DNA of 64,000 nt from Candidatus Poribacteria bacterium (GCA_965214045.1 OZ243935.1:2578409-2642408); one strand, 5' to 3'. Positions 2,377 to 63,089 are shown, counted from the first letter of the stretch. A program made the numbers and translations. The notes: generated by a model from the letters alone, not told the origin.

Positions 2377-2405
2377 GCTGATCGTTGACTGCTGATTGCT
2401 GATCG
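2377..2405. repeat. heptamer array (HPE arm): GCTGATC GTTGACT GCTGATT GCTGATC
   Basis: Four tandem 7-nt units abut the stop codon (2406-2408) of the vWA gene. Confidence 0.8.
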
Positions 2406-3509
2406 TTATTGCTGTATTGGAATCGGGAACCAGAGTCCCCCAGTTTTCGTTGTTAACGCTCTATGTGTGGTGTGATTGATGCCGATAACATCTACAATGA
2501 TGTTGTTCTGGAAGCATTGTGCTAACACTTCTGGTAGCGTATAAGACCCTTTGCTCGCTTCATCGGTGACAAGAATGAACCGGCGGTTTACCCCTTCGCG
2601 GAAGTTGACGCGACGAATTGTTTTTATGATCGCATTGTGTGCCCGTTCATCTCCAGCAGCGGCGACAACGTGTGAAGTTAACAGCCGTTTGTATTTCTCG
2701 CTATCTCGCGTTTGTGGATGGATAATCGTATCGCCTTCAAGATACCTGAAAATAACGATTCCGAGAGTGAAATCAATGCCTTTCTCTTCAAACACTGTTA
2801 CCATCCGATTGAGTTGTCTGCCGACTGCACGGATATTATCTATCATGCTCCCACTAATGTCAAGTAGAAAAACGAGATCAACAGCAGTTTCGGTTTTGCC
2901 GTCAGCGACGCTCTCGGCGATACCTTCTAATGCCTCCCCCATTCGTGCGTCTCTGTCAATCGGTGGCGCAGGGCTATTATTATCTGTCCCTGTGTTCAGT
3001 GCAGTTTCTCCTTGGATGGCCTTGGGTTTAGGAGCGATTGTGGGAGCCTGCGCATTTGCAGTCGCAATCGTTTTCCATGCGAGAGTCTCTGGGGTCTGCT
3101 CGCGCAGAGATGTCTCAGCCATTGGTAACCGAGCGTCTGTCCTCAGCACGGGAATAGATGCACTGGAAGCGGTTGGCGGTGCTGAATGCACCAGTTTTGC
3201 AACGTTTTGATTCAGAGGTGGCGAGGTCTTTGAACGCGTCGGTGTTGACCGTCGGGTGGTTGGCATAGAACGTTTGCGCGTACTATTTACATGAAAACGC
3301 TGGAGAGATGTTACAGAGATGGCTTCCGAGGTAAGCGGTTCCGAAGGTTGCATCGGTCGATACCACTGAATATAACTGAGACCTATAATTCCCGTCGCAA
3401 TGACGTGTAGAACCAACGAAACCAGAAAGGCACGCCGGGTTTTTCTACGCTTCTGCTGAAGTTTGTCTGAATAGGTATCGAGTAACAGCATATTTCGTTT
3501 CCCTACCAA
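2406..3509 (-). CDS. membrane-anchored von Willebrand factor A (vWA) domain protein
   Basis: N-terminal TM segment (FLVSLVLHVIATGIIGL), a low-complexity S/T/P linker, and the MIDAS motif DLVFLLDISGSM. The exact start is uncertain. Confidence 0.8.
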   Translation of the reverse strand: MVGKRNMLLLDTYSDKLQQKRRKTRRAFLVSLVLHVIATGIIGLSYIQWYRPMQPSEPLTSEAISVTSLQRFHVNSTRKRSMPTTRRSTPTRSKTSPPLNQNVAKLVHSAPPTASSASIPVLRTDARLPMAETSLREQTPETLAWKTIATANAQAPTIAPKPKAIQGETALNTGTDNNSPAPPIDRDARMGEALEGIAESVADGKTETAVDLVFLLDISGSMIDNIRAVGRQLNRMVTVFEEKGIDFTLGIVIFRYLEGDTIIHPQTRDSEKYKRLLTSHVVAAAGDERAHNAIIKTIRRVNFREGVNRRFILVTDEASKGSYTLPEVLAQCFQNNIIVDVIGINHTTHRALTTKTGGLWFPIPIQQ

Positions 3510-3517
3510 GAGGCTGC

Positions 3518-6076: not shown

Positions 6077-6154
6077 TTTTTAATTTTACCTTGCGGAGTA
6101 ATGAAAGGGGTTTGAACTGTTGCGTGCGTTCCCTCTATCCTGCTTCGCAGTGAG
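6077..6154 (-). promoter_or_regulatory. Box B + degenerate Box A leader module (copy 2)
   Basis: Minus-strand reading ...CACTGCGAAGCAGGATAGAGGGAACG ... CTCCGCAAGGTAAAATTAAAAA followed by ATG. TAAAAT is at -12..-7. Confidence 0.5.
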
Positions 6155-6348: not shown

Positions 6349-6975
6349 TTAGTTATCGTCATCATCATCGTCATGTCCGTTATCATCGTCGTGTTCGTCG
6401 TCCTCATCATGCTCATCTTCTTCCTCGTCATGAACATCATCCATGTTATCATGATCGTCGTCCATGTCCTCGTCATGTTCATCGTCTTCCTCATGCTCGA
6501 CATCCATTTTCTCATGAGCATCTTCGTGCGCGTCGCCGTGTTCTTGCTGGATGACCCGCTCTTGGGCTTCTTGTTGATTAATCCAATCAACGAATAATTG
6601 AATTTCAGCCTCCGTCAGTGGCGGTCCACCAGGGGGCATTCTACCGGAAACGATCTCTTCAACGACTTCACTCTCTTCTGCGTTCCCCGGGATGAACGCA
6701 GGACCGTGTTTGCCTCCCGCTATAAATGATTCGTATGTCCTGAAATCCAGACCGTGAGGACCATCGGCGACGTGACACCCCGAAAGCGCGCATCTCGCCG
6801 TAAGGATGGGCAGAACGTTCTGTTCAAAGGAAGTTTCGACGGTATCAACGGATTCGTGAACGTCCATCGGCGATATATGATCAGGTATTAGCAAGTTACT
6901 CCGATCGCGCGCACATCCAAGTACGCAAAGTATTACCGCAACAGTTAAGAAAAAAAATCGTGTGCTTGTAGTCAT
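6349..6975 (-). CDS. lipoprotein with planctomycete-type cytochrome-c-like domain and a ~65-residue Asp/Glu/His-rich C-terminal tail
   Basis: Lipobox VLGC. LPILTARCALSGCHV...RMPPGGPPLTEAEIQLFVDWI resembles PSCyt-type domains. The tail is HEDAHEKMDVEHEEDDEHDEDMDDDHDNMDDVHDEEEDEHDEDDEHDDDNGHDDDDDDN. Confidence 0.7.
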   Translation of the reverse strand: MTTSTRFFFLTVAVILCVLGCARDRSNLLIPDHISPMDVHESVDTVETSFEQNVLPILTARCALSGCHVADGPHGLDFRTYESFIAGGKHGPAFIPGNAEESEVVEEIVSGRMPPGGPPLTEAEIQLFVDWINQQEAQERVIQQEHGDAHEDAHEKMDVEHEEDDEHDEDMDDDHDNMDDVHDEEEDEHDEDDEHDDDNGHDDDDDDN

Positions 6976-8362: not shown

Positions 8363-8525
8363 ACCTCACAATAGCATCCACAGAAGAAATGTGTCTTAGC
8401 CTTCGAGTGGCTGATTCTTGCCTTATGCGTGTTTGGGAAACTGAAAAGCACAATTTTTGGATGCAACAGGCTTGCAACCCTTGTTTGCAAGCAATGTAAT
8501 GAATCTAAAGGAGGAATTTAGAAAA

Positions 8526-11343: not shown

Positions 11344-13062
11344 GTGAGCATAATGATAGACCTGAGTAATGTGCTGAGAGCTTCAGCGAACGTTCCAGTG
11401 CAGGCACATTGGGATCCAATCGAGAATACAGCGAATAACTTGCATCGATCGACAAAAGAGAAGTTTAATCGAGCCAAGGCACAGTGGAAAGAACCGATAG
11501 ATATGACATGGGAACAGTGGTTGGAGGTGTTCAATCCCGGACCCGCACATGTCCTGAAAAACTACAACACGACGGATTTTCAAGCCTTTCTTCCGCCATC
11601 AACCGTCGACGTGGGAGATGTCTGGGACTTGGATCCGGAAGGGATTCTCCCCTTTCTTTGCCAGTTCCATCCCAGCGCAACAATGAATGTCAAATATGGT
11701 CAGAACGGAGCAAAGGCGTGCTTACGGGCACTTTCGTCTGAATATGCTGACATTGTTTTCCGAATCCATGCGCGCTTCGCACTGGACGCGTCTATTGATG
11801 CCTACTTGATGCCAGCGCAATTTGCTGGACATCTGCTCATCAATCGCAACAGCGGAACGATTTGCCAATTTACGCTATCGCTTCCTAATCGCAATAGTAA
11901 TGTAGATATCGGTGCTTTTAGAACTCATGATATAGGATTTGTCCCTCGCATGGAACTCTACAGTTTATCGGAGATGCAACCAGAATCGATTGTTTGGGAG
12001 GTAGCCATCACGGAGGAAGAAGCCAATAAAAAGTTTCAGAGCGCACTCTACAAGTTTGCTGAAATTGAGTGGACCCCGATTGAAGATGCAGTCGAACTCG
12101 CGAAATCATCGAATCGTCCGATCCATGCGGTCCTCCTATTCGGTGTCCTCGACGATGAATCCTGCTGAGGAACCGGCAAAGCCTTGAGAGCGGGTCCGCT
12201 CTCCTCACCGAAAATTATCAATTTGCTCAACACGTACTTTGTGAACGTCTGGGTTCTGTTCAGAGAGTTGCCCGAGCTACAAACGGGTACCAAAGGGATA
12301 GCAGCGGGTGCCTTGGCAACGCAACTCCGACAACGTTACTCCGATTCTGTGGACAGCCTGACACTCACCGCCGACTTGGAAGTGATTGAACACCTCCCCA
12401 GTAAGAATTTATTTCATCCGGATTATCGCCTACCTCACAGTGAGCGGATACCCCGATATTTGGAGATGCTTAAGTCATCTGTGGGTATGGAAGTTGTGCC
12501 ACAAAAACCGAGGAAATTTGGAAAGCACGATCTATCCCGTAGACTTGCCGAGGCCTATGAAAAATTTGGAAAACCTGCACCTGATTTTTCTGCAACAGAT
12601 ATTGATGGCGAACCCATTTCGCTCCAGCAATATCGTGGGAAAGTCATCCTCCTCGATTTCTGGGCAGTCTGGAGCGGTTTCTGCGTCGGAGAGATGCTGA
12701 AGGTCAAGAAGATATACGATACCTATAAAGATCAGGGATTTGACCTCATCGGAGTCAGCCTCGATACCGATGAAACGAAGTTGCGAAATTACCTTAAGGA
12801 AAATGACATCCTGTGGCGGCAAATTTACACTGGACTGGAACGCCAGAGTCCCCTCGCGCAACAGTATGATGTTCGTTCTATTCCAGCGCGGTGGCTTATC
12901 GATAGGGATGGCACGCTGATCGCCCATGAAGCTACCCACAAGTTGATCTCTCGCAGAGGTAGGGAGGCAGATTTAGAGCAGTTGGTGGCAGAAGCAGTGA
13001 CGAATGAAAAGTCCACGGAATCTGTAAAATCCGCGACAATCCGCGATTCAGACGATTACTAA
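11344..13062 (+). CDS. candidate selenoprotein: unknown N-domain + thioredoxin-like domain with C-U at the redox site + C-terminal TlpA/redoxin-like domain (requires UGA 12166-12168 read as Sec)
   Basis: ORFs 11344..12168 and 12184..13062 share a frame and are separated only by TGA plus 15 open nt. The junction AVLLFGVLDDESC-U-GTGKALRAGPLSSPKIINLLNTYFVNVWV matches a Trx-fold active-site layout. A hairpin lies 18 nt downstream of the TGA. The start may be the ATG at 11353. Confidence 0.55.
12186..12203 (+). promoter_or_regulatory. SECIS-like hairpin downstream of UGA 12166
   Basis: GAGAGCG-GGTC-CGCTCTC. The loop G residues lie 27-28 nt after the U of UGA. Confidence 0.45.
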
Positions 13063-13072
13063 CCGATAATCC
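13027..13072. repeat. AATCCGCGATTC-type repeat (left copy), partly coding for the C-terminal tail of the preceding CDS
   Basis: AAAATCCGCGACAATCCGCGATTCAGACGATT. A related copy at 14054-14083 lies on the other side of the 13147..13971 gene. Confidence 0.6.
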
Positions 13073-21988: not shown

Positions 21989-22429
21989 GTGGCTTGTATA
22001 CCAATATCACAAAATTTTGGGGTGATACACGTGTTAAGATATAGTCAGCTCGCGTCTATCGCTATTCTCCTCTGCTGGATGCTATCCGGATGTGCTATAA
22101 TATCGCGAGATGTTACGCGGACTGAGGCTTACAATCGATTCGCAATCAAAGCTGCACAGGCGCAGCTCTGGAATGAAGCCGTCTTCCGGTGGAAGCAGGT
22201 TGTCAGTATCGATCCGGAGGACGCTAAAGCACATAATAACCTCGGTGTTGCTTACGAGGCACTCGGGAACATGGAGGCGGCTATCGCCTCTTACCAGCGC
22301 GCAGCAGAATTAGAACCAAATAATAAATACTACAGACTCAACTATCGGCGGTGCCGTATACATCTTCGGCGAAGTGGAGGGGACGATGAAGATGCACCGC
22401 AGTTAGAAGAACCACTACCTACGGAGTAG
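21989..22429 (+). CDS. TPR-repeat lipoprotein
   Basis: Lipobox MLSGCA. TPR signature DAKAHNNLGVAYEALGNMEAAIASYQRAAELEPNN. The true start may be GTG 22031 (GGGGTGA SD). Confidence 0.75.
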   Translation: MACIPISQNFGVIHVLRYSQLASIAILLCWMLSGCAIISRDVTRTEAYNRFAIKAAQAQLWNEAVFRWKQVVSIDPEDAKAHNNLGVAYEALGNMEAAIASYQRAAELEPNNKYYRLNYRRCRIHLRRSGGDDEDAPQLEEPLPTE

Positions 22430-22516
22430 CGGTCAGCAGTCGGTTCCTGTCAGGAAAGAGGTTTCTTGCTGGTAGCCGAAAGGGTCGCGTAGCAACCCGT
22501 GCTGATGGCTGATGAC
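22430..22516. repeat. heptamer palindromic element (HPE)
   Basis: Left arm CGGTCAGCAGTCGGTTCCTGTCAGG. Core AGGAAAGAGGTTTCTTGCTGGTAGCC... Right arm GCTGATGGCTGATGAC, which contains the ATG of the next ORF. Confidence 0.75.
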
Positions 22517-23237
22517 TAATATGCAGATAGCGAAAAGAATAGGAATTCTATTAGGAGTCTTAACGCTTTGTGGATGTGGCAATGCTGTGACGCGTGTCTC
22601 TATTCCGGTGAAGGTCCAATCTGAAATCGACATTACTCGCTACTCCAACTTCGCCGTTTTACCGTTTATCAGCGAGAAACAGATAGAACGGAACGAAAAA
22701 CTACCGCCAGAGATCGGCGGGGAGATCGCCTCAATACTTCGGAGAGGTTTAGCACGCCAGAAACATTTTGAGGTCGTCAGCACACAAGAAACAGCGAGGC
22801 TGCTCACTGGTGAGACCGTGGAAGAAGATTGGCTTTCTAATACAAAGCACTTGAGTCAGCTCGGTGAGTACTTTGAAGTAAAAGCGGTTATCATCGGAAG
22901 TTTCCGATTCTATGCCGATAGTCGTCCAAGACGTTATTATGGGGAACGCTACTCCGTACAACGGCAACGCTATGTCGTGGATTATCAAGATTACATGCAG
23001 AAAACCTATCTACTCTCACTCCGTGTAATGATTGTTGATGTTGAAACCGAAGAGGTGGTTTGGGATGAGTCTTACCGAAGAAGCACTGCTGAAGCGCATA
23101 CCATCGGGTCGTTCATTTTCTCACAGGTTGGACCCCAAGCGAATACGATTCGGGAACTCGGTAGACGTGCCGTATCGGAATTTACACGCCAAATCTCTCC
23201 ACATTATGAGAACGAAGATAGATATTTAGTCAAGTAG
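22512..23237 (+). CDS. hypothetical lipoprotein
   Basis: Lipobox LTLCGCGN. 241 aa. No family recognised with confidence. Confidence 0.7.
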   Translation: MTNMQIAKRIGILLGVLTLCGCGNAVTRVSIPVKVQSEIDITRYSNFAVLPFISEKQIERNEKLPPEIGGEIASILRRGLARQKHFEVVSTQETARLLTGETVEEDWLSNTKHLSQLGEYFEVKAVIIGSFRFYADSRPRRYYGERYSVQRQRYVVDYQDYMQKTYLLSLRVMIVDVETEEVVWDESYRRSTAEAHTIGSFIFSQVGPQANTIRELGRRAVSEFTRQISPHYENEDRYLVK

Positions 23238-23238
23238 A

Positions 23239-23342
23239 AATCGGCGATCGGCGGTCAGCGGTCAGAAAAGAGAATCTTGTGGTAGGTGAAAACGATAGCA
23301 ATTGTCCGATCTACCGAAAGCCAACGGCTGACAGCCAATGGC
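23239..23342. repeat. heptamer palindromic element (HPE)
   Basis: Left arm AATCGGC GATCGGC GGTCAGC GGTCAG. Core AAAAGAGAATCTTGTGGTAGGTG... Right arm GCCAACGGCTGACAGCCAATGGC, which includes ATG 23338. Confidence 0.8.
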
Positions 23343-26300
23343 GAAAGAAAAGGTAAGTGATGTGAAGGACGGTAAAAACAGAACTTCATTGATGGAATTG
23401 GAAGGCAGTCAGAAGGGACTGGAAGGTTGGAAAGTTGGAAGATTGGGGGGCATCCATTCTTCCATTCTTCCATTCTTCCAACCAAGTTCTTCCACGTGGG
23501 TAGGCAGGGATGTCCTGTTGCTACTTGTTGTCCTAAGCTTGTTATCACCTTGTGTTGCGTGGTCTCAAAGTTTTGGAAAAAACAAGATTACCGATCAACG
23601 CTTCGATTGGCACATTCACCGGACAGAGCATTTTGATATTCACTACTACCCAAGTGAAGCGAAACTCGTGCCTATTATGGCGGCGATCGCCGAAGAGGCT
23701 TACGAGCAACACAGCGAAGATTTTGAACATGAATTGCAAGACAGAACACCGCTCATCCTTTACAAATCCCACAAAGACTTTCAGGAAACCAACATAATTC
23801 TTCAAGAGCTTCACGAAGGCATTGGAGGTTTCGCGGAACTCTTTAAACACCGTATCGTTATACCCTTCACCGGATCCTTGGAAGCGTTCCGAGAGGTAAT
23901 TTTTCACGAACTCATCCATATTTTCCAATACGATATTATTTATCAAAAACCGCATGCCCGCATCTATAGTGGTGAATTTCTCTATTCCCCGCCAATCTGG
24001 TTTATAGAGGGGATGGCGGACTATTTTGCAGAAGACAATGATGCGATTGGGGAGATGGTCGTCCGCGATGCCAGCATGAATAACAAGATTGTGCCGCTAC
24101 CGCAGCTCCACAATTTCAACCGGCTCAGTTCACCTTTCGTTGGATATAAGTTGGGACAATTGGCAGTGGCGTATCTCACAGAGACTTATGGACGAGAGAA
24201 AATCGCTGAGATTTTGCAGGGGCTACGACAGAGTCGTACAAAGGACATCAACCATGTTTTCAGAGAGGTTCTCGGGGTAGAACTCGAAGAATTTGATAAG
24301 GCGTGGCGGCAGACAGTCCGAAAACGCTACTGGCCCCTCGTTGAGCATAGGGAATTGCCGGATATGGTATCGAAGAACCTTACAGAGGAATCTCGATATT
24401 CTCATAACATTAAACCGGTCTGGTCCCCGAGCGGCGATCTTATTGCTTACGTCACTGGAAATGACGGATTCCTGGAAATTGTCCTCATGTCCGCAAAAAC
24501 AGGTGAACGCATTGAGCGTGTCACGAAGCAGTTTTTCCGTGAGAAATATGAGGAGATCCGAACCGATTTCGGAGGATTTGGAAGAAGCCTCGCATGGGCA
24601 CCAGACGGGGACAGGATCGCATTCATCGCCAAACATCACGATGCAAATTATCTCCTTGAAGTCAACATTTTGACTGAGGAACTGACGCAGTACTTCGAGT
24701 TGCATTTTGATAACGTCACTTCACCCGACTACGATGGCAGCGGTGAACGGATCGTCTTTTCTGCACTAAAAGAGGGACAGACGGATCTCTATGTAATCGA
24801 ATTGCTGACGGGTGAAGTGGACAGGCTTACTTTCGATCCATTTAACGATACACATCCGTCGTGGCACCCAAGAACTGGGGAAATTGTCTATGCGTCCGAA
24901 CGAGGTGCCAAAAATCGATTGGTACTGATAAATCTCAGCCAAGGTACGGAACGCATACTCACCGATGGCACCTATAACGCTATCAGTCCAAGCTGGACAC
25001 CAGACGGAACATCGATTCTTTTCTGTTCGGATCGTCAGAGCATTTACGATATACACAAACTTGAAATCGTGGAGAAGGACAGCAATCAGCAGTCAGCAGT
25101 CAGCGATCAGCAAGAAAACCTCGTTGCTAATGGTCAAGAACCGAGAGCCGAGGACCGTTCTTCTGATAGCCGAACAGTTCTCACTGCAGAGCAAGCCGAG
25201 AGCCATGACAACGAAGAAGTCGTCTCAACTGAAAATGGTAGCACGGAACCTATGGGTTCTCGACCTTTAGAAGTTGAGTTGACCCGTCTTACGAATATGA
25301 TGACAGGCTGTTTCAATCCGAGCTTGGCTCCGGATGGTAAACATCTGCTGTTTAGTGCCTATCAGAATGGAAAATACGATGTTTGTATCATGGAGAGTGC
25401 CAAAACGGTTGAGGAAAAAATTGGGGTTTCAAGCGTGTCGGAACCCTCTGTCATTTTGACGGAGGAAGAAGAAGAAAATTATAGGGTTGCCAAGCGAAAA
25501 TACAGTACGAGATCTTCTTTTGCTTTAGATGCTATCTTCCCGAATTTCAGTTTCGGTGCGGATGGTATCCTAAGAAGTACAGTGCAAATCGTCGGCAGTG
25601 ACATGTTAGGTAACCATCGTATCGGGGTGAGCGTGATGAACCAATCGAGTTACCTCGCACCCGATTTTATCGCACAATACGGTTTTTTGACACACCGAAC
25701 TGATGTTGGTGCAGTGATTTACAACTATCATGAATACCATATCTTGGGCGGTATACAGAGTAGGCGGGGCATTCTGCAACGGATTACCGGGCTTGGCGCG
25801 TATGTCAATTACCCGTTTGACAGGTACCATCGACTCGACTTTGAGTTCTCAATGTACTCGAAGCCGTTTTCCTTTAACTTCCAAACGCGTGAGCCTTTGG
25901 ATCCATACGACGATAGAGGCTTGCTCACGATGGGTTCCGTTGCGTTTGTTGGAGATACAACGATGTGGCGGGAGTGGGCACCTTATACAGGTTCGCGGTA
26001 CCGTGTTGAACTTGAGCAATCTTTCCCCGCACTCGGTAGTGAATTGTCACTAACAAATGTTATTTTTGATGCGCGACGCTATTTCGGTGTCGGCAGACGA
26101 TCTACCATTGCGGCGCGATTGTTGCTCGGCGGTAGTTTCGGTGGTGATCGATCTTATTTTTATCTCGGTGGGATTGATACGCTACGCGGCTATAATTATG
26201 AAGAGTTGGTCGGGACACGCATCGGACTCCTCAATCTTGAAGTCCGTATCCCGTTCATAGATGTGCTTCATTTCGGGTGGCCCGTCCCGTGGACGCTCGG

Positions 26301-26558: not shown

Positions 26559-26586
26559 GTTGTCAATTATCAGTTGTCAGTTAACA
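26559..26586. repeat. heptamer array GTTGTCA ATTATCA GTTGTCA GTTAACA
   Basis: It starts 3 nt after the stop of the OM protein gene and is followed by Box A. Confidence 0.8.
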
Positions 26587-29600: not shown

Positions 29601-29879
29601 GTCGTATGGGGTGAAAGTCTTGAGGAGGCACTCGTCAAGATGTTCGGACGGGGAACAGGGGGCCAGACCACCGCTGCGACAATGGCAACTGATGACATTG
29701 GTGCTGCTGATACTGAGTTTTTAGAAGGGGTTTCTAACCCCGATTCCGTACAAGGACTCATTGAACAAGCAAACCGCTATTTCAATGAAGGACAGGATGC
29801 ACTACGCGCCGGGAATTGGACGGAATATGGGCGGTATCAGCGACTTTTAAAGGAAACTTTACGGCAACTTACGCAATAA
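26688..29879 (+). CDS. UPF0182 family membrane protein
   Basis: 1063 aa with multiple N-terminal TM segments. C-terminal LWNTQGSRVLRGNLLILPVNNSLLYVEPIYIQ is characteristic of UPF0182. Confidence 0.85.
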   Translation: MDSRTKRFIITITVLAVIGGLGAIWVSLYPDFLWFKVVDYFSVYTKILTTKIFVGVIVGVCYLAILLTNIALIYRFTPAHLSPAFMGGADFMGGATDNPGDTRKLIYGGLTLLAVLFSVMMGYAASDRWEVYLRYTNAENLAFRAATPIIVEESLNSAEIPVSQLELQAKNIRVGDQISVQVNGTNQDARVEAILDRGDVGAIRLNTPVQIEPGQKAFFTSPARDPIFDKDVAYYVFRMPAERYVCGTLFGIFMLVTIFAVVVYFFHGLITGDTSQFRFRPPFNVKAHLFTLVGLTLLFRAWNYRFAMFDLLYTTNDVVRGGGGYAAMKARLPILYFLIGLTILCALIFIISIFLQRNTLAFGGFAVFLIAGFLGQVYPVAIQRWQVEPRKQVLEADYINYNITATLQAYGLAENTVTEEEYPLTEQLSYDDIRSPENASVFNSIRLWDWRPLRRTFRQLQELRTQYDFNDVDIDRYVVDGEIRQVMLSGRELNINELPAEIRNDWYKQTYTYTHGYGAVVSPVNEIENGKPNMYIQGLPPIDYSEQWQHRFSEIPGPRIYYGERTDRYVIVHPERSQGLEFDYPQEGQQYAEYAYQGKGGVQLNSFWRKMVYMLKFDNEINFVLPGEISSTSRILYERNIKNRIQKIAPFLRYDGDPYIILHNGRLVWMIDAYTITHRYPYSVSMREFVSERRRQIANAQRDNEPWGNYIRNSVKVVVDAYDGTVDFYVMEREQDPIAECYRKIFPSLFKPFEEMPEELKAHIRYPTSMFLIQARVYRDYHMKDPVTFYAGEDKWEIGRELYDNTDAQTRQASAPPQPRSPFAPQQVPQNSGANGQPVEPYYVVIRLPGQEQSEFMLMLPFTPLNKPNLTAWLAARCDLPQYGQLLVYRFPKGKQIAGPMQVENFISQEPEISQQISLWNTQGSRVLRGNLLILPVNNSLLYVEPIYIQSEDEKTAIPELRRVVIGYGNEVVWGESLEEALVKMFGRGTGGQTTAATMATDDIGAADTEFLEGVSNPDSVQGLIEQANRYFNEGQDALRAGNWTEYGRYQRLLKETLRQLTQ

Positions 29880-29880
29880 C

Positions 29881-29985
29881 CATCAGCCATCAGCGGTCAG
29901 CCATCGGCAAGAAACCTATTTACTGGCGGTTTCCGATAGGTGCCAACCATTTCCGCTGTAAGCTGACTGCCGATAGCCGACGGCT
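29881..29985. repeat. heptamer palindromic element (HPE)
   Basis: Left arm CATCAGC CATCAGC GGTCAGC CATCGGC. Core AAGAAACCTATTTACTGGCGG... Right arm GCTGACT GCCGATA GCCGACG GCT. The arms are about 14/17 complementary. Confidence 0.8.
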
Positions 29986-30011
29986 AATAACTATTAAAGG
30001 AGGTGATACAG

Positions 30012-30395: not shown

Positions 30396-30402
30396 GTTTA
30401 AT

Positions 30403-30461
30403 AGCAGTCAGTGGTCAGCGATTAGCAAACCCCGCTTTGCTGCTGGCAGCTGACTGCCATT
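30403..30461. repeat. heptamer palindromic element (short core)
   Basis: AGCAGTC AGTGGTC AGCGATT AGC - AAACCCCGCTTT - GCTGCTGGCAGCTGACTGCCATT. Confidence 0.75.
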
Positions 30462-30557
30462 AACACTGGAATCTATTTTGGCGGGTTAAAATGTAGGAGC
30501 GACCTGTAGTTCGCGTCGAACACGGAAACCTTTATTGCACAGATCGTGATACTTATC

Positions 30558-36699: not shown

Positions 36700-36705
36700 T
36701 AAAAT

Positions 36706-36815
36706 GGCTGTCAGCCGTCAGGTCGGGTTTTCTACGAAAACCCCTTCAGCAGTCGGTTAAGAGATTTTCGTTTAACAAAGATTTCCTCTTTGCCCACCGC
36801 CGATAGCCGATAGCT
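36706..36815. repeat. heptamer palindromic element (compound)
   Basis: GGCTGTCAGCCGTCAGGTC ... hairpin GGGTTTTCTACGAAAACCC ... CAGCAGTCGGTTAAG ... CCGCCGATAGCCGATAGCT. Confidence 0.7.
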
Positions 36816-36852
36816 ATTCCTTTGACCGTTATCTTGTGGAGACAAGCATTAT

Positions 36853-41679: not shown

Positions 41680-41733
41680 GTCAGCCGACAGCTATTCTTC
41701 TGACTGCCGACACCCAATGGCTGACAGCTATTC
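41680..41733. repeat. heptamer palindromic element overlapping the GMC gene start
   Basis: GTCAGCCGACAGCTATTCTTCTGACTGCCGACACCCAATGGCTGACAGCTATT. ATG 41717 lies inside it. Confidence 0.7.
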
Positions 41734-52835: not shown

Positions 52836-52885
52836 GAATAGCCGTTGGCAATCAGGTCGTTTTTTTTCTTCCGAAAAAAAACTTT

Positions 52886-52971
52886 CAGTGGTCAGTAAAT
52901 CATTACGTCAGTTGCAAACGATTTTTACCGCTACACGATCCTCTTTGCTGACTGCTAACTGCCGATTGCTG
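52886..52971. repeat. heptamer palindromic element ending at the next gene's ATG
   Basis: CAGTGGTCAGTAAATCATTACGTCAGTTGC ... TGCTGACTGCTAACTGCCGATTGCTG followed by ATG 52972. Confidence 0.7.
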
Positions 52972-55449
52972 ATGGCTTCTTTGCTAACGGCTTTCTTCTG
53001 CATTGTCGTGTTCGTCCTACCAGTGAGGAGCGATCAAATTCCGATTGCGGTATCTGGTGAACCGAGAGCGACACTTCAGGTCGGCGCGAACGCCTCGGAA
53101 CAGGAACAGTTCGCAGCCACCGAAATCCAATCCTTTATTCAACAATTCACAGGTGCCAAACTTGACATCCGTACCAATCGTCAACCAACGGAGACACAAA
53201 CGGTGATTGTGCTTGGCACCCCAAGCTCGAATCCGACGATAGCAGGGTTACAGGCGAATGTGGAACTGGCGTTGGCGAAAGAACTCGGAGACGAAGGCTA
53301 TCGTATCAAAACGGTAGAGGTCGGCACAGAGATCGTCATTGTTGTGACAGCGCATACCGAGAGAGGCGTGGTCTATGGGGCGTATGCCTTCATTGAAAAT
53401 TGTATTACGGCGTTGACGGGTTTAAAGCCTGTCCATCCAGAGTTACCCGTCGCCAAAGCACAAGTACTGCTCGTGCCGTTCATGAACGAGACTTCATCAC
53501 CATTTTATCCCGTGCGTGCTGTCTTGGAGATAGAGGATCCGGACTGGCTTGCACGCCACCGTATCAACATGAGTGGTGGCGAAGGCGTTTGGACAGGCAC
53601 GGGTATTGAAGATGGGTTCGGGACGGCGTTTAAATATGTGGATGCCCCCGCGTTTGAAGCTTTGCAGGATGAACCGATAGGACAGCGGCGAGAACGCATC
53701 GCAGTGCTACAGAATCGGTTTGATGCACTCGAACGGCGTGGCATTGATGCCTATCTTTTCATGTATGTAACTGGCGAACCGACAGAGGCACTGATTCAAC
53801 AGCGTCCCGATGTTCTTGGACCGAGGGTGCTTTACGGGGCTTCTCGGAATGAGGTATCTTATCGTCCGTTCTGCTGGTCAAAACCCGCGTTTCATACGCT
53901 TGCGAGGGAACTGACACAGTCGATCGTGCGCGCCTATCCTGCGCTTGCCGGTTTTCATCTACGTTCTTGGGGGCATGAGACACGTGCGTGTGATTGTCCT
54001 GACTGTGGTGATAGGACGGAACAGGGACAAGCAAAACTTTGGCAAGTCTACTTTACGATTATCAACGCTGCTCGCGAAGTGCGTCCGGACTTCAAATTTT
54101 ATATCTCCGGGTATGACAGCAGTTGGCTCAAGGATGCCGCTGGCGTTTATGCACAGCAGCTGCCGAAAGGAACTATTTTCTCGCGGAAATGGGGCGCAGA
54201 TGGCGAACCCGTCGCGAGCGCAGGTTTACCTATCCCACAAGTCAGGGCACTCGGAGAAATCGGGCATCGCTTTATAGTCCTTTCGCATGAAGTAGAGGAG
54301 GTGATGCCGCTCTGGATGCTCGAGAGTGATCTGTTCGTGCAAGGTGTTCGGCAACTTGCCAATAACCCCGAAGTCATCGGTCTCGGTGGGTTTACTGTCC
54401 AAGGCGCGACACAAGGGTTAGGGTACCTCGATCGCCTTGTCAGTGCAAGCCTTAATTGGGATATCAACCTTGATCATTATCAACTCCTCCGAAACGAGTT
54501 GATTGCCCGGTACGGCACCGAAGCCGCACCACATATTCTGAATGCCTTGCGGGTGAACGGATGGAACATGGCAAGTTATTTCACGGATTATGCTGGTTCT
54601 TTGACCGTAGGTGGCACTTATGGCAGCGGATCCGCCGGACTCGCAACGCGATTCTGGGCATTGATTGGACCACGGGCTGTTGAAGATACATTGGCTATTC
54701 CAGAACTGGATATTGTGAAACTCGCTGTGGACCGGTTCACGGCACTTTTGGCACCACAACAGCAGGCGGCAAACGAGATACGAGTCGCATACGAGATCGC
54801 AGAGCCTTTTGATCTGGAAGCAACCGAGGATTTACGCGATGCCGTCCACTTAATGGAATTGTGGGTCCTGTTCTTTGAAAGTCGAGCCAAGTTGGTAGAA
54901 GCGATAGCACTCGGCTATGAGCCTGGAACAGAGCAGGCAATCCGTGCAAAAATTACAAGTGCAATAGAATTTTCAAAGTCCATACAACCACATATCAAAG
55001 GAATTGAGGAATTTATCCCACTCTTCGGATATTCGCATCGGACGATTGAAGCGGAATTACTGAGTACCTTAAACACAGAAGTCGCTTGGTTAACGAGTTT
55101 CGATTATAAGACGCTCCAGAAACATGATGAGGACTTCTCACCAGAGGAAACCCCTTACCGAATTTGGGATGTTCATAACTTCCCGAATCCGCTGAAAGAA
55201 GAAACAACATTTACCTATCAGTTATCATTGGATTCAGATGAAGTCTCTATCACGATTTATGCTACATCCGGACGGGTTGTAAATGTCTTGAAAGGGGCTT
55301 CTGGAAACGAAGGCTACAACGAGTTTATGTGGGATGCACGAGACGCTGACGGGCTATTACTTGCCAATGGTGTTTATTTTTTCAGGATACGTGCTGTCGT
55401 CGGAGACCAGATAGCACAGACACTCGGACGCTTGGCAGTGTTACGATAA
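52972..55449 (+). CDS. secreted putative glycoside-hydrolase-like protein (DUF4838-like N-terminal region) with T9SS/FlgD-type C-terminal domain
   Basis: I prefer ATG 52972 (MASLLTAFFCIVVFVLPVRS signal peptide) over ORF-track start 52813, which overlaps the ZIP gene. Motif GDEGYRIKTV...ERGVVYGAYAFIE. C-terminal NFPNPLKEETTFTY...GVYFFRI. Confidence 0.7.
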   Translation: MASLLTAFFCIVVFVLPVRSDQIPIAVSGEPRATLQVGANASEQEQFAATEIQSFIQQFTGAKLDIRTNRQPTETQTVIVLGTPSSNPTIAGLQANVELALAKELGDEGYRIKTVEVGTEIVIVVTAHTERGVVYGAYAFIENCITALTGLKPVHPELPVAKAQVLLVPFMNETSSPFYPVRAVLEIEDPDWLARHRINMSGGEGVWTGTGIEDGFGTAFKYVDAPAFEALQDEPIGQRRERIAVLQNRFDALERRGIDAYLFMYVTGEPTEALIQQRPDVLGPRVLYGASRNEVSYRPFCWSKPAFHTLARELTQSIVRAYPALAGFHLRSWGHETRACDCPDCGDRTEQGQAKLWQVYFTIINAAREVRPDFKFYISGYDSSWLKDAAGVYAQQLPKGTIFSRKWGADGEPVASAGLPIPQVRALGEIGHRFIVLSHEVEEVMPLWMLESDLFVQGVRQLANNPEVIGLGGFTVQGATQGLGYLDRLVSASLNWDINLDHYQLLRNELIARYGTEAAPHILNALRVNGWNMASYFTDYAGSLTVGGTYGSGSAGLATRFWALIGPRAVEDTLAIPELDIVKLAVDRFTALLAPQQQAANEIRVAYEIAEPFDLEATEDLRDAVHLMELWVLFFESRAKLVEAIALGYEPGTEQAIRAKITSAIEFSKSIQPHIKGIEEFIPLFGYSHRTIEAELLSTLNTEVAWLTSFDYKTLQKHDEDFSPEETPYRIWDVHNFPNPLKEETTFTYQLSLDSDEVSITIYATSGRVVNVLKGASGNEGYNEFMWDARDADGLLLANGVYFFRIRAVVGDQIAQTLGRLAVLR

Positions 55450-58290: not shown

Positions 58291-58338
58291 GTTTTAGCAT
58301 TTCCATTGCAATCCCTACGCTTTTTATGGTATTTTATA

Positions 58339-58555
58339 GTTGTCAGTTATCAATTATCAGCTTTATAGTAAAGCCCGAAAATATCTGCACACCGCTGGTA
58401 GGGTCTTTCACCTAACCGCACCGAGTTTGGTGTAAAATTAATTACAGAATCCACTATAAGAGTTATCAGTTGTCAATTATCAGTTATGAGTTAAAGAGGA
58501 CCCTGGTTACACGAAAACCTCTTAACCGACAACTGAGAACCGACAACCGATAGCC
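58339..58555. repeat. cluster of three heptamer arrays
   Basis: GTTGTCA GTTATCA ATTATCA (58339-58361). GTTATCA GTTGTCA ATTATCA GTTATGA GTTAAAG (58462-58496). Inverted AACCGAC AACTGAG AACCGAC AACCGAT AGCC (58524-58555). Confidence 0.8.
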
Positions 58556-61074: not shown

Positions 61075-61110
61075 TATCACTTTTGTATCCTGTTCGTGGA
61101 ATAAAATTGT

Positions 61111-61242
61111 AGGACTTACGCACTTCCCTGGTAGGTGCGGAATGTAATACGAGGAATGGATTTGGTCTATTCCCAGACCAAATCCCCTAACCGCACCGAT
61201 TGCGTCCAAATAGATGAAATTTACTGATTTTGCGTAAGTCCT
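61111..61242. mobile_element. MITE-B copy 2 (132 bp)
   Basis: AGGACTTACGCA...TGCGTAAGTCCT. Flanking AATTGT direct repeat. About 98 percent identical to copy 1. Confidence 0.8.
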
Positions 61243-61319
61243 GAATTGTTTAACGCTCGCTGACGAGGGAGGTCCAAGTAAAATACCTCGCTCTCTGAAA
61301 ACTGACTACTACTGAAAAA

Positions 61320-62105: not shown

Positions 62106-63053
62106 TTGAAGCATATATTCTGTCTAATTCTACTCATCGCGTTGCTTTTTCCAGCTGTTGCCGCTGCTACATTCAATAATATTGGTGTTGGCGCGAGACC
62201 GTTAGGTTTAGGTGGAGCGTTCGTCGCACTCGCTGATGATAGTAACGCTGCAGATTACAACGCCGCAGGATTAGGTTATATTGATGGGATCCATCTCGGT
62301 GCTACGCATGCGCAACGCTTTAACGGGCTCATTACCTATAATGCCCTCAGTAGTGTTATTCCGCTCGGAAGAATAGGGGCAATTGGGGCAGGTTTCGGAG
62401 GTTTGGCAGAGGATTCCGAAATTTATAGTGAACAGACGTTGCGACTCTCTTACGGAAGTGCGCTTTTCAAACAATTCGCAATCGGTGCAAATCTGAAACT
62501 CTTCCGTGCCGCTTTTGACGAGACAAATGAATTCGTTGTAGAGAATCCGTATTTCGTCAACACCTCGAGTTCAGCTGTCTCTTTTGATCTCGGTGTGATC
62601 GCAAAACCTTTCCAGAGTCTGAGTCTTGGTGCATCGGTAGAGAACCTACTCCCCGCAGATATGAGCATATCTGACACGCAGACGGATTCGGTGCCGTTAA
62701 ACATTCGTGCCGGTTTGGCATACAGACTTGCGTCTATGGCGGAGATGAGCGCGCAAGGTGCGGCGGTCAGCAACTTGTTGAGAGGTAGTCTTGGGAGCTT
62801 TGAGGTTGCGTCTCGCAATGGCGAAATTTATATACGCACCGGAATAGAAGTCTGGTTGAATAAATCTATCGCTGTTCGCGGCGGTTATGGCGTGAAAAAT
62901 GGAGGGAGTTCGGCAACAACCCTGAGTTTCGGTGGGAGTGCTAAGCTGCCAATCAGTGGTACTGCCCTCCAACTTGACTATGGATTTCAACTGCTGAGTG
63001 GGAATCTTCAAGACAATATAACACAGCGGTTCTCCCTTAATCTGTTGCTTTAA
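62106..63053 (+). CDS. outer-membrane beta-barrel protein, PorV/PorQ-like
   Basis: TTG start and signal peptide. GARPLGLGGAFVALADDSNAADYNAAGLG. C-terminal aromatic-rich strands. The function call is tentative. Confidence 0.6.
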   Translation: MKHIFCLILLIALLFPAVAAATFNNIGVGARPLGLGGAFVALADDSNAADYNAAGLGYIDGIHLGATHAQRFNGLITYNALSSVIPLGRIGAIGAGFGGLAEDSEIYSEQTLRLSYGSALFKQFAIGANLKLFRAAFDETNEFVVENPYFVNTSSSAVSFDLGVIAKPFQSLSLGASVENLLPADMSISDTQTDSVPLNIRAGLAYRLASMAEMSAQGAAVSNLLRGSLGSFEVASRNGEIYIRTGIEVWLNKSIAVRGGYGVKNGGSSATTLSFGGSAKLPISGTALQLDYGFQLLSGNLQDNITQRFSLNLLL

Positions 63054-63056
63054 TTA

Positions 63057-63089
63057 GGTGTCGGTCGTCGGTTGCCAGCAGTCAGTAGC
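63057..63089. repeat. heptamer array (HPE arm)
   Basis: GGTGTCGGTCGTCGGTTGCCAGCAGTCAGTAGC, directly after the stop codon and upstream of Box A. Confidence 0.7.

What the first reader, a model, noticed from the sequence alone, without database searches (positions are those of the whole stretch)
2377..63089. Intergenic DNA is saturated with palindromic arrays of heptamer repeats (STRR-like) at 13 or more loci
Tandem 7-nt units occur in two to five copies. Unit types include RGTCAGC/CATCAGC, GCTGAYY, GTTGTCA/ATTATCA and AACCGAC. An inverted array usually lies 20-60 nt away, so each locus can fold into a long imperfect hairpin. Loci: 2377-2405, 22430-22516, 23239-23342, 25084-25190, 26559-26586, 29881-29985, 30403-30461, 36706-36815, 41680-41733, 52886-52971, 58339-58555 (three arrays) and 63057-63089. 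Related ATCCGCG-type units occur at 13027-13072 and 14054-14083. Cores are loosely conserved: a purine-rich AAGAAA/AAGAGR start, then TTGCTGGTAG-like sequence (ttgtggtagg, ttactggcgg, ttgctaatgg, ttgctggtag, ccctggttac). They typically begin within a few nt of a stop codon and replace classical terminators. In three places the order is stop codon, heptamer arm, Box A, Box B, ATG. Heptanucleotide STRR repeats are known from heterocystous cyanobacteria, but the gene content here (T9SS-type sorting domains, PorV-like barrel, no photosynthesis genes) does not look cyanobacterial.
Basis: partly seen in the sequence, partly recalled or inferred. Interest (0 to 1): 0.7.

Follow-up and report, generated by a model that had tools for sequence, protein, structure and literature searches.

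The report
Heptamer-armed palindromic repeats in Poribacteria
A sponge-symbiont (Candidatus Poribacteria) chromosome carries a fast-evolving family of small hairpin-shaped repeats built from 7-base units, wedged between stop codons and the next gene's ribosome-binding site and once inside a gene; they are the same kind of thing as the unexplained heptamer repeats of cyanobacteria and behave more like dispersed selfish DNA than like terminators.

Summary
Period-7 arrays are about 10-fold enriched in the window, and in 1.74 Mb of orthologous DNA from 80 Poribacteria genomes.

The arrays are arms of discrete elements: AATAG terminus, n x CAG[T/C]NNN, core TTAAAGAGG-loop-CCTCTTAA, n x NNN[A/G]CTG, terminus CTATT. 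Small hairpins (AAAG-stem-loop-stem-GTAC) are often nested in the arms. A CAG-type array precedes a CTG-type array 56 times against 5.

The elements are confined to one Poribacteria subclade. They differ completely between genomes about 97% identical in the flanking genes, change in 7-nt steps, and are empty or filled at orthologous sites. Near-identical ~105-nt copies occur on metagenome contigs with unrelated flanks. One element sits in frame inside an Omp85/PD40 gene.

The arms are not complementary at the variable unit positions beyond chance. G.U does not exceed A.C on the sense strand. No U-tract follows the arms and no target-site duplication was found.

Best reading: dispersed, slippage-prone palindromic repeats (REP-, MITE- or RPE-like) of the STRR/TAACTGA kind, newly seen in Poribacteria. 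Any RNA-level role is unproven. 'Saturated', 'replace terminators' and the ATCCGCG loci are not supported.

The parts
2377..2419 (.). One-armed heptamer array. It reads CAG-type (CAGCAAT/CAGCAGT) on the - strand and overlaps the stop codon of the - strand VWA gene 2406-3509.
   Evidence: No inverted partner within 150 nt and no stable fold.
22427..22518 (.). Complete element between the TPR gene stop (TAG 22427-22429) and the next gene. Left arm 22430-22454, inner stem AAAGAGG..TCTT 22455-22467, right arm 22468-22516. A mini-hairpin AAAGGGTCGCGTAGCAACCCGTG is nested in the right arm at 22479-22501.
   Evidence: -38.4 kcal/mol, z -3.8; absent at the orthologous site in L003.
23239..23342 (.). 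Complete element directly after stop codon TAG 23235-23237. Left arm (ATCGGCG/GTCAGCG units), AAAAGAGAATCTT core, right arm GGCTGACAGCCAATGGC.
   Evidence: z -3.1; the interior is replaced in L001 although the flanks are 96-97% identical.
25080..25190 (.). Element inside ORF 23338-26556 (peptidase-MA/PD40/Omp85 protein), translated in frame as a hydrophilic linker. Left arm 5 x CAGCNNN, core AAGAAAACC.., degenerate right arm (CCGAGAG units with no in-frame stop).
   Evidence: +15 nt in L001, +36 nt in L002; a different element in L003, length difference 36 nt; the ORF is continuous in all species checked; orthologs outside the subclade lack the 45-95 aa linker.
26559..26586 (.). One-armed CAG-type array (GTTGTCA/ATTATCA units) starting right after the stop codon of the Omp85-like gene. 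It is followed by Box A (26603-26627) and Box B (26668-26686), then ATG 26688.
29877..29993 (.). Complete element. The stop codon TAA 29877-29879 of the UPF0182 gene is the first triplet of the stem. 4 CAGC-type units on the left, AAGAAACC core, 4-6 GCYGAYN units on the right. The next gene's ribosome-binding site (AAAGGAGG) follows.
   Evidence: z -3.4 on +, -7.5 on -; orthologous site empty in L013, L022, L036-L038 and distant genomes, filled with different elements elsewhere.
30398..30463 (.). Short complete element with TTAATAG...CATTAA termini and a 22-nt loop. A MITE (30266-30395) is inserted immediately 5' of it in this genome only.
   Evidence: I1, 82% complementary arms; z -5.5; L002 lacks exactly one 7-nt unit; element absent in L003.
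36703..36818 (.). Complete element after the FG-GAP gene stop (TAG 36697-36699). Left arm with nested mini-hairpin GTCGGGTTTTCTACGAAAACCCCTT (36722-36746), core GGTTAAGAG..CCTCTT, right arm GCCGATA x2, terminus CTATTCC.
   Evidence: z -4.0; W, L001 and L002 carry three different mosaics here although the flanks are about 95-97% identical.
41680..41733 (.). Degenerate short element between the TPR gene stop and the GMC oxidoreductase start. Mostly CTG/CCG-type units and a direct repeat GACAGCTATTC.
   Evidence: z -1.2 to -1.8; weak.
52846..52977 (.). Element upstream of the probable true start (ATG at about 52973) of the secreted glycoside-hydrolase-like gene. Left arm with nested mini-hairpin GTCGTTTTTTTTCTTCCGAAAAAAAACTTT (52856-52885), right arm 4 x GCTGAYT-type units (52944-52971).
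   Evidence: The fold is weak (z -0.3).
58337..58360 (.). Left-arm-type array (ATAGTTGTCAGTTATCAATTATCAG), separated by about 100 nt of other repeat material from the next element.
58461..58555 (.). Canonical complete element: 4 x CAGTTRT-type units, GTTAAAGAGG, 19-nt loop, CCTCTTAAC, 4 x CGACAAC/TGAGAAC units. It ends 9 nt before ATG 58564 of the S49 peptidase gene.
   Evidence: I6; z -4.3 on +, -7.8 on -.
63057..63089 (.). One-armed CAG-type array after the stop of the PorP/SprF-like gene (ends 63053), followed by Box A (63117-63141) and Box B (63182-63200), then ATG 63202.

Best explanation
These are copies of a lineage-specific family of small, non-coding, dispersed palindromic repeats in one subclade of Candidatus Poribacteria.

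Shown:
- Each element has defined ends (AATAG...CTATT).
- Each has a palindromic core (TTAAAGAGG, a 16-22 nt loop centred on a TGATTAAC-like palindrome, CCTCTTAA).
- Each has two arms of the oriented unit CAG[T/C]NNN in strict 7-nt phase. The unit is on the top strand on the left and on the bottom strand on the right.
- The arms vary in 7-nt steps and are often interrupted by nested mini-hairpins.

Inferred:
- The family spreads by a copy-and-paste process of unknown enzymology that leaves no target-site duplication.
- Each arm then grows and shrinks independently by replication slippage in 7-nt steps.
- Copies survive only where they do no harm: in the few bases between a stop codon and the next ribosome-binding site, where the terminal TAG/TAA unit often serves as the stop codon, or in frame in a tolerant protein linker.
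- Because most copies lie between co-directional genes, they should fold into long imperfect hairpins in the mRNA. These may incidentally affect processing or stability, but the pairing itself is not what is conserved.
For: Dispersal.
- Seven metagenome contigs share a ~105-nt element with sharp boundaries. Their flanks have no BLAST similarity to each other.

Turnover.
- The site downstream of the UPF0182 gene is empty in L013, L022, L036-L038 and in all the distant genomes shown (under 75% identity). It is filled with different elements in the subclade.
- W, L001 and L002 are 95-98% identical in flanking genes but carry different mosaics at 36706 and 23239.
- The 22430 and 30403 elements are absent in L003.

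Slippage.
- A 7-nt indel in the 30403 element.
- +15 and +36 nt in the intragenic copy.
- Different unit numbers around one conserved core: L018, L021, L027, L064 and L011, L019, L070.

Discrete ends.
- 82 of 210 arrays are preceded in phase by a TAG unit.

The motif, not the stem, is conserved.
- Array order is 56:5.
- The unit matrix is C79 A79 G85 T66/C26 %.
- In-register Watson-Crick pairing at positions 5-6 is 0.40/0.32, against 0.48/0.33 for unrelated elements.
- The alignment fold has a positive covariation term and 1 compensatory pair of 37.
- On the sense strand G.U = 85 against A.C = 112.

Other.
- In-frame copy in a conserved gene.
- Clade restriction: 38 of 42 loci at 80% or more amino-acid identity have arrays, against 4 of 32 below 75%.
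Against: - No mobilising enzyme was identified. No target-site duplication was found. No full-length autonomous relative was found.
- The one Y1 transposase seen (L058) is flanked by a different REP.
- Within the subclade the same intergenic sites are almost always occupied by some element. That could mean selection for a hairpin rather than an insertion hot spot or shared descent.
- Only 64 kb plus syntenic loci were available, so copy number per genome and identity between copies within one genome were not measured.
- The dispersed copies come from metagenome contigs whose organism was not verified.
Confidence: 0.5

Rival explanations
1. Selected RNA-level hairpins. The elements are kept because the long stem-loops in polycistronic mRNAs act as 3'-end protectors, RNase III or RNase E processing sites, or factor-dependent terminators. 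That would be a REP/BIME-like function standing in for classical terminators.
For: - Strongly negative folding z-scores for complete elements, down to -7.8.
- Placement precisely between stop codon and ribosome-binding site of co-directional genes. About 29 of 71 intergenic stems start within -8 to +10 nt of a stop.
- Given sites are occupied across the subclade by non-homologous elements.
- Classical terminator-like sites are only at chance frequency in the window.
Against: - No U-tract after the arms.
- Variable unit positions are not complementary beyond chance.
- A.C is at least as frequent as G.U on the sense strand, and the two best hairpins fold better on the antisense strand.
- No covariation among dispersed copies.
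- A copy sits in frame in a coding region.
- One-armed arrays exist.
- No Rfam family matches.
Confidence: 0.2
2. Phased protein-binding arrays. The heptamer CAG[T/C]NNN is the recognition unit of an abundant DNA- or RNA-binding protein, such as a translational or post-transcriptional regulator, a cold-shock-type single-strand binder or a nucleoid protein. The inverted arrangement reflects two-sided binding.
For: - Conservation is at the level of the oriented unit and its exact 7-nt phase, not of the stem.
- The same unit (TAACTGA = CAGTTAT) recurs in cyanobacteria, Beggiatoaceae and Bacteroidetes (PMC4679880), in Microcystis and Fischerella plasmids and in 103 IMG/VR contigs.
- A binding partner has been postulated for Beggiatoaceae (PMC4679880) and for Nostoc (bioRxiv 10.1101/2022.06.06.494920).
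- The right arm ends 7-60 nt before the next start codon.
Against: - No candidate protein was found or tested.
- Flanking genes have unrelated functions.
- Unit number and unit type change freely between close relatives, and elements are gained and lost. That is unusual for a regulatory site.
- The conserved non-repetitive core and termini are not explained.
Confidence: 0.15
3. Pure slippage microsatellites. The arrays arise locally at each site by replication slippage on a slippage-prone heptamer, and the inverted arms arise by template switching, without any dispersal.
For: - 7-nt indels between close relatives.
- Adjacent units in one arm are more alike (0.72/0.60 at positions 5-6) than random units (0.39/0.42). 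The arrays were ascertained by periodicity, which biases this comparison.
- Heptanucleotides are reported as the commonest long simple-sequence repeats in prokaryotes (Mrazek 2007, as cited in PMC4679880).
Against: - Non-repetitive core, mini-hairpin and termini are shared by copies with unrelated flanks.
- Defined TAG-unit ends.
- The array order is fixed.
Confidence: 0.07

Closest known systems
STRR (short tandemly repeated repetitive) heptamer sequences of heterocystous cyanobacteria (Mazel et al. 1990; structured intergenic regions, Jackman & Mulligan 1995; both from memory, not held in the paper library)
   Same: Short tandem arrays of 7-nt units in non-coding DNA between genes, often as inverted arrays able to form stem-loops. 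They are highly variable between close relatives and their function is unknown.
   Different: - The host is Candidatus Poribacteria, with no HIP1 background.
- The units are CAGTTRT and CAGCRRT rather than the canonical STRR1-3.
- Here a conserved AAGAGG...CCTCTT core, AATAG...CTATT termini, nested mini-hairpins and an in-frame genic copy are documented.
TAACTGA intergenic direct repeats of marine Beggiatoaceae, some Cyanobacteria and Bacteroidetes (MacGregor 2015, PMC4679880)
   Same: - The identical unit: TAACTGA is the complement of CAGTTAT, the second commonest unit here.
- 2-6 copies per set, intergenic.
- Forward orientation just upstream of start codons, which corresponds to the right arm here.
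- Sporadic phylogenetic distribution that suggests horizontal spread.
- 7-nt indels between strains.
   Different: - In the 'Maribeggiatoa' genome 169 sets are direct and only one is inverted. Here inverted pairs around a core are the rule (56:5).
- Many related units coexist here, whereas related heptamers are rarely repeated in that genome.
REP/BIME and REPIN elements of Proteobacteria (PMC3733652, PMC3116915)
   Same: Small imperfect palindromes, dispersed in intergenic spacers of operons, combined into mosaics, without target-site duplication. Proposed effects on mRNA stability and termination.
   Different: - REPs are 20-40 bp with a GTAG or CGTC tag and are tied to a RAYT transposase.
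- These elements are 50-220 nt with heptamer-periodic arms and ATAG ends.
- The RAYT-like gene seen in L058 is flanked by another REP, GCCCCGCTGGGGC.
MITEs
   Same: Size, inverted arms, multiple copies with unrelated flanks, presence/absence at orthologous sites, nested insertions.
   Different: - No target-site duplication in 27 elements. The genuine MITE in this window (30266-30395 and 61108-61245) has 6-9 bp duplications.
- The arms are not sequence-identical inverted repeats but independent arrays of a degenerate unit.
- No autonomous partner is known.
Rickettsia palindromic elements (RPE; Ogata et al. 2000, from memory)
   Same: Palindromic repeats of about 100-150 bp that can sit in frame inside conserved protein-coding genes and are translated as an extra peptide segment.
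   Different: Only one genic copy was seen here (25080-25190). There is no sequence relationship and the arms are heptamer-periodic.
Small dispersed repeats (SDR) of Nostoc (Elhai et al. 2008, from memory; the paper could not be read)
   Same: Hairpin modules of 20-30 nt inserted at a fixed position and orientation inside other repeats. Here AAAG-stem-loop-stem-GTAC lies between ..CTG and ACTG.. of heptamer arms.
   Different: The sequences differ, and whether the Nostoc SDRs prefer heptamer arrays is recalled, not checked. Here the stems covary (GGGTTGC/GCAACCC, GGTTTTTC/GAAAAACC, GGAACG/CGTTCC).

Membership tests
Cyanobacterial STRR | Short tandem arrays of a heptanucleotide unit | tested here: met
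   Lag-7 arrays 14 against 1.5 expected in the window. 150 at lag 7 against 5-38 at other lags in 1.74 Mb of Poribacteria loci.
Cyanobacterial STRR | Located in non-coding DNA at many loci | tested here: met
   By position, 11 of the 12 strict chains in the window lie outside genes. The tool labelled 9 of 12 'intergenic/edge'; I reassigned two: one (R 25137-25157) belongs to the intragenic 25080 element, and one (52944-52971) lies upstream of the probable true start of its gene. The exception is the in-frame copy at 25080-25190. 78 of 285 '++' intergenic regions in subclade loci carry arrays.
Cyanobacterial STRR | Host is a (heterocystous) cyanobacterium | tested here: not met
   The best genome matches are all Candidatus Poribacteria MAGs. 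HIP1 (GCGATCGC) occurs once in 64 kb. Gene content is heterotrophic, with T9SS-type sorting domains.
Cyanobacterial STRR | Canonical units STRR1 CCCCART, STRR2 TTKGTCA, STRR3 CAACAGT (recalled) | tested here: inconclusive
   The commonest units are CAGTTGT, CAGTTAT, CAGTTAA, CAGTAAC and CAGCAGT. STRR3 is a rotation of CAGTCAA and so falls in the CAGTNNN class, but that exact unit is not among the top 45.
TAACTGA direct repeats (PMC4679880) | Unit TAACTGA in tandem, 2-6 copies | tested here: met
   CAGTTAT, the complement of TAACTGA, accounts for 43 of 790 phased units. Examples: L005 13682-13720 and L018 6684-6714.
TAACTGA direct repeats (PMC4679880) | Forward orientation a few nt upstream of start codons | tested here: inconclusive
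   CTG-type arms end 7-60 nt before the next start in many cases. Arrays without a detected partner: 14 CTG-type against 8 CAG-type before starts.
TAACTGA direct repeats (PMC4679880) | Direct repeats only; inverted sets exceptional (1 of 170) | tested here: not met
   A CAG-type array is followed within 250 nt by a CTG-type array 56 times, and the reverse order occurs 5 times.
REP/BIME (RAYT-associated) | Imperfect palindromes dispersed in intergenic regions | tested here: met
REP/BIME (RAYT-associated) | 20-40 bp unit with a GTAG or CGTC tag | tested here: not met
   Elements are 50-220 nt. The outermost in-phase unit starts with TAG (ATAG) in 82 of 210 arrays.
REP/BIME (RAYT-associated) | Cognate RAYT gene flanked by the repeats | tested here: inconclusive
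   The Y1_Tnp gene L058 70-456 (Pfam E 2e-27) is flanked by inverted GCCCCAGCGGGGC/GCCCCGCTGGGGC hairpins, not by heptamers. Only about 1.9 Mb was searched.
MITE | Short non-coding element with inverted termini, multiple copies in unrelated contexts | tested here: met
   An alignment of 7 copies shows sharp boundaries, and the flanks have no BLAST similarity.
MITE | Target-site duplication | tested here: not met
   0 of 27 elements have identical 4-nt direct flanks. Per-position direct identity is 0.30-0.70, no better than inverted identity.
MITE | Related autonomous IS with the same ends | not tested
   It would need whole genomes. No transposase is adjacent to any element in the window.
Rickettsia palindromic element-like genic insertion | Palindromic repeat inserted in frame in a conserved ORF that stays open | tested here: met
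   ORF 23338-26556 is continuous in all species checked. The insertion maps to alignment columns 617-697, between conserved blocks, and is absent in L037, L059 and L075. Length differences are multiples of 3.
Intrinsic (Rho-independent) terminator | G+C-rich stem followed by a U-tract on the sense strand | tested here: not met
   None of the elements is called on the sense strand, and the window totals are at shuffle level (16, 24 and 23 against 19.9, 20.9 and 20.7). Arms are followed by ATTAAAGGAGG-type sequence.
Integron attC site | Order RYYYAAC ... GTTRRRY at the 3' end of mobile cassettes | tested here: not met
   The order here is GTTxxCA ... TGxxAAC, the opposite. The flanking genes are housekeeping genes in conserved synteny across 80 Poribacteria genomes.

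The most novel reading that the evidence does not exclude
The heptamer-armed palindromes may be a so far undescribed class of prokaryotic 'foldback' mobile element. Its arms would be phased arrays of a 7-nt recognition unit (CAG[T/C]NNN) read by an unknown enzyme that inserts without target duplication. The same system, carried by phages, would underlie the unexplained STRR/TAACTGA heptamer repeats scattered across Cyanobacteria, Beggiatoaceae, Bacteroidetes and now Poribacteria.
Probability: 0.2. Interest if true: 0.8.

Novelty: new variant of a known kind. Interest (0 to 1): 0.55.

Why it matters
Heptamer (STRR/TAACTGA) repeats have been known for more than 30 years without an accepted origin or function.

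What this case adds:
- They occur in a fifth, unrelated lineage: uncultivated sponge symbionts.
- They have a clear modular anatomy: defined ends, a conserved core, oriented units and nested mini-hairpins.
- They are dispersed and turn over quickly.
- The conserved feature is the oriented 7-nt unit rather than the stem.

Consequences:
- The question changes from 'which hairpin?' to 'what reads a phased CAGY unit?', which can be tested by phylogenetic profiling and binding assays.
- Complete Poribacteria chromosomes now exist for a full census.
- For annotation, these elements create false N-terminal extensions and hypervariable 'linkers' in genes. They are likely break points in short-read assemblies of sponge symbionts.

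Tried and rejected
- Cyanobacterial origin: rejected (HIP1 once; all 80 genome hits are Poribacteria).
- Known RNA families and tRNAs: none (the only sub-threshold hit is a chance mir-H1 match to the octamer palindrome at 23420-23480).
- CRISPR: no unit/spacer structure.
- Integron attC: the motif order is the opposite and the genes are syntenic housekeeping genes.
- Classical terminators: not met.
- Sense-strand RNA signature from G.U against A.C: 85 against 112, not supportive.
- Balanced arm lengths: array lengths of the two arms do not correlate (r = -0.03; a noisy measure).
- Covariation among dispersed copies: 1 compensatory pair of 37, positive covariation term.
- Target-site duplication: none.
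- Link to a Y1/RAYT transposase: one gene was found in L058 but with its own REPs. The IS605 TnpB in L022 is unrelated.
- Orientation relative to transcription: not testable, because the elements are near-palindromic and the loci are dominated by + genes. The '--' deficit (1 of 66 against 78 of 285) is confounded by orthology.
- The metagenome pattern scan returned mostly chance matches. About 22 of 94 were real elements after filtering for flanking periodicity.
- Elhai et al. 2008 could not be read.
- 50 kb of the Nostoc PCC 7120 alpha plasmid held only 3 heptamer arrays and no palindromic one.
- The host of phage contig L254 could not be identified.


Full report

Yes, in the main.
- Tandem Repeats Finder reports twelve period-7 rows among 31 in the window.
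- A lag scan (14 positions, at least 11 matches) finds 14 lag-7 arrays against 1.5 in shuffles. Lags that are not multiples of three give 0-3.
- Strict chains of three or more in-phase C[AG]G[TC]/TAG[TC] units occur 6 times on each strand, against 0.72 expected.
- Seven loci are complete inverted pairs that fold with z-scores from -2.4 to -7.8.
- Two loci (41680, 52886) are weak.
- Four (2377, 26559, 58337, 63057) are one-armed.
- The 'ATCCGCG' loci at 13027 and 14054 have period 10 and belong to something else.
- The elements occupy about 1.0 kb of about 9.8 kb of intergenic DNA, in 9 of 40 intergenic regions, so 'saturated' is too strong.
- The locus at 25084 is inside an ORF.

**2. Whose genome is it?**

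- The UPF0182 protein encoded at 26688-29879 finds 80 orthologous loci. All labelled records are Candidatus Poribacteria, and a few are labelled only 'uncultured bacterium'. Amino-acid identity runs from 99% down to 61%.
- HIP1 occurs once.
- The genes are heterotrophic housekeeping and secreted-protein genes.
- In the 1.74 Mb of fetched loci, lag-7 arrays number 150, against 5-38 for lags 4-12.
- They are confined to a subclade. 38 of 42 loci at 80% identity or more have at least one array, against 4 of 32 below 75%.
- The loci come from complete-chromosome MAGs, short-read MAGs and a single-cell assembly, so this is not an assembly artefact.

**3. Anatomy.**

- A CAG-type array is followed within 250 nt by a CTG-type array 56 times. 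The reverse order occurs 5 times.
- The phased unit is C-A-G-[T/C]-T-R-T. Two classes dominate, CAGTTRT and CAGC[AG][AG]T.
- Between the arms lies a core, typically CAGTTAAAGAGG, then 16-22 nt, then CCTCTTAACTG. The loop is itself centred on a TGATTAAC- or TGGTTTAACCA-like palindrome.
- The outermost unit starts with TAG in 82 of 210 arrays, giving ends AATAG...CTATT.
- That TAG or TAA is often the stop codon of the upstream gene. Stems start at offset -3 in at least seven cases, and within -8 to +10 nt of a stop in about 29 of 71 intergenic stems.
- The right arm ends a few bases before the next ribosome-binding site.
- A second module, AAAG-stem(6-9)-loop(3-4)-stem-GTAC, is inserted between ..CTG and ACTG.. 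of the arms. Its orientation relative to the unit is fixed, it occurs in either arm, and its stems covary. Window copies are at 22479-22501, 36722-36746 and 52856-52885.

**4. Dynamics.**

- Downstream of the UPF0182 gene the spacer is 5-40 nt and empty in L013, L022, L036-L038 and in all the distant genomes shown (under 75% identity). In the subclade it holds elements of different unit class, core and length.
- W, L001 and L002 are 95-98% identical in coding DNA. Even so, the 36706 site holds three different mosaics and the interior of the 23239 element is replaced.
- The 30403 element differs by exactly one 7-nt unit in L002.
- The 22430 and 30403 elements are missing in L003.
- Around one conserved core the unit number varies between species.
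- A pattern scan of metagenome contigs gave mostly chance hits. About 22 were genuine elements.
- Seven of those share a ~105-nt sequence: arms, mini-hairpin remnant, core and termini. Similarity stops sharply at the ends, and the flanks have no BLAST similarity. That is dispersal of a complex sequence, not local slippage.

**5. A copy inside a gene.**

- The element at 25080-25190 lies in a 1072-aa peptidase-MA/PD40/Omp85 protein.
- The ORF is continuous in all 29 genomes checked.
- Orthologs outside the subclade lack the segment. Inside the subclade it is a hypervariable 45-95 aa hydrophilic linker between strongly conserved blocks.
- Length differences between close relatives are multiples of three: +15, +36 and a 36-nt difference from L003.
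- In L003 the linker is encoded by a different heptamer hairpin with a nested GGAAGG/CCTTCC palindrome.

**6. What is conserved: the stem or the unit?**

- With the register fixed by the core, Watson-Crick pairing is high at unit positions 1-4 and 7.
- At the variable positions 5-6 it is only 0.40 and 0.32. That is no better than pairing arms of unrelated elements (0.48 and 0.33), and many mismatches are transversions.
- Adjacent units within one arm are more alike than random units. The arrays were ascertained by periodicity, which biases this.
- On the sense strand of co-directional contexts, A.C mismatches (112) are at least as frequent as G.U (85). The two strongest hairpins fold better on the antisense strand.
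- The six aligned dispersed copies give one compensatory pair of 37 and a positive covariation term.
- No U-tract follows the arms, and terminator-like sites in the window are at shuffle level.
- No target-site duplication is present in 27 elements. A true MITE in the same window does have duplications.
- These results argue against a selected RNA stem and against a classical MITE. They point to an oriented, phased unit as the conserved feature.

**7. Comparison with what is known.**

- The unit CAGTTAT is the complement of TAACTGA. TAACTGA is the intergenic direct repeat described in Beggiatoaceae, some Cyanobacteria and five Bacteroidetes, where inverted sets are exceptional (PMC4679880).
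- BLAST of a Poribacteria element against plasmids hits only through its arm. The targets are TAACTGA direct arrays in Microcystis and Fischerella plasmids.
- An exact (CAGTTAT)3 occurs in 103 IMG/VR contigs. There, CAG-then-CTG pairs outnumber the reverse 18 to 0.
- One such contig (L254) encodes a phage head-tail connector and carries many heptamer hairpins between its genes.
- The function of cyanobacterial heptamer repeats is still only speculated (bioRxiv 10.1101/2022.06.06.494920).
- No paper in the held library combines Poribacteria with 'heptamer'.

**8. Verdict.**

- The finding is a real, lineage-specific family of heptamer-armed palindromic repeats of the STRR/TAACTGA kind, in a phylum where it has apparently not been described.
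- The most likely explanation (0.5) is dispersed, slippage-prone, essentially selfish DNA. It is tolerated between stop codon and ribosome-binding site, and in one protein linker.
- A selected RNA role (0.2) or a phased protein-binding role (0.15) is not excluded.
- The mobilising activity, the copy number per genome and any effect on transcripts remain to be measured.

Noticed in passing
window 6078-6096(-), 26668-26686(+), 30557-30575(+), 31660-31678(-), 31872-31890(+), 40257-40275(-), 49210-49228(-), 52033-52051(+), 63182-63200(+): The motif CCGCAAGGWAWAATTAAAA occurs 9 times, against 0.03 expected. In at least five cases it ends 1 nt before an ATG start codon on the same strand. It looks like a -10-type promoter (TATAAT/TAAAAT) abutting the start codon, so possibly leaderless mRNAs.
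   Followed up: partly
window 26603-26627(+), 49271-49295(-), 63117-63141(+): The hairpin motif GCCTGCAACAACGGCGCAGGCGGAT ('Box A') occurs 3 times, against 0 expected, about 40 nt upstream of Box B. Its function is unknown.
   Followed up: partly
window 30266-30395 and 61108-61245: A classical MITE of about 122 nt. Terminal inverted repeats are AGGACTTACGCA/TGCGTAAGTCCT and the target-site duplications are GTTTAATAG and about AATTGT. The two copies are about 97% identical. The first is absent from the otherwise 97-98% identical L001 and L002.
   Followed up: yes
window 23417-23483; L001 about 20100-20190; L003 about 6700-6770 and 8380-8450: A second family of periodic palindromes has purine-rich GGAAGG/TGGAAGGT-type units (period about 8) on the left and CCTTCC/TCCATTCT units on the right. 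It is sometimes nested inside heptamer elements.
   Followed up: no
window 49405-49435(-); L019 about 13180-13330; L040 about 13200; L001 about 20065-20095: A GTAG-headed REP-like palindrome, TGTAGGAGCGA..CTC..TCGCGAT. It is tandem in L019 and inserted in heptamer-element loops or arms elsewhere. The window loci 13027-13072 and 14054-14083 (ATCCGCGATTCGGA) look like relatives of this motif, not of the heptamers.
   Followed up: partly
L058 30-640: An IS200-like Y1 transposase gene (70-456, Pfam Y1_Tnp E 2e-27), apparently frameshifted at its C-terminus. It is flanked by inverted GCCCCAGCGGGGC/GCCCCGCTGGGGC hairpins, which is a RAYT/REP-like arrangement in Poribacteria.
   Followed up: partly
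L022 15833-17118: An IS200/IS605-type element: a TnpA fragment plus a 370-aa TnpB (OrfB_IS605 plus Cas12f1-like TNB domain).
   Followed up: partly
L253 and L254 (IMG/VR contigs), for example L254 1549-1647, 2318-2382, 3700-3775, 5677-5801: A phage-like contig (head-tail connector domain) carries at least seven heptamer hairpins (CAGTGAT/CAGTAAT units, TTTGCCTTT cores) between its genes. The host is unknown. This is a possible vehicle for horizontal spread of heptamer elements.
   Followed up: partly
L053 9134-9800: In a distant Poribacteria genome, five copies of a GCCAATT/GCTAATT heptamer array recur about every 160 nt, as a longer tandem repeat. This is a different unit from the CAGY family.
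   Followed up: no
window 6355-6486: Overlapping period-6, 12, 18 and 21 tandem repeats (ATCATCGTCATG-type) lie at the 3' end of the - strand ORF 6349-6975. This is probably a repetitive acidic or histidine-rich C-terminal tail.
   Followed up: no
window 58385-58425; window 30283-30360; L059 about 13300-13400; L146 about 3480-3510: The motif GGTAGGTGCGG...CCGCACC recurs. It is found inside the MITE, between the two heptamer arrays at 58.3 kb, and in other Poribacteria and metagenome loci.
   Followed up: no
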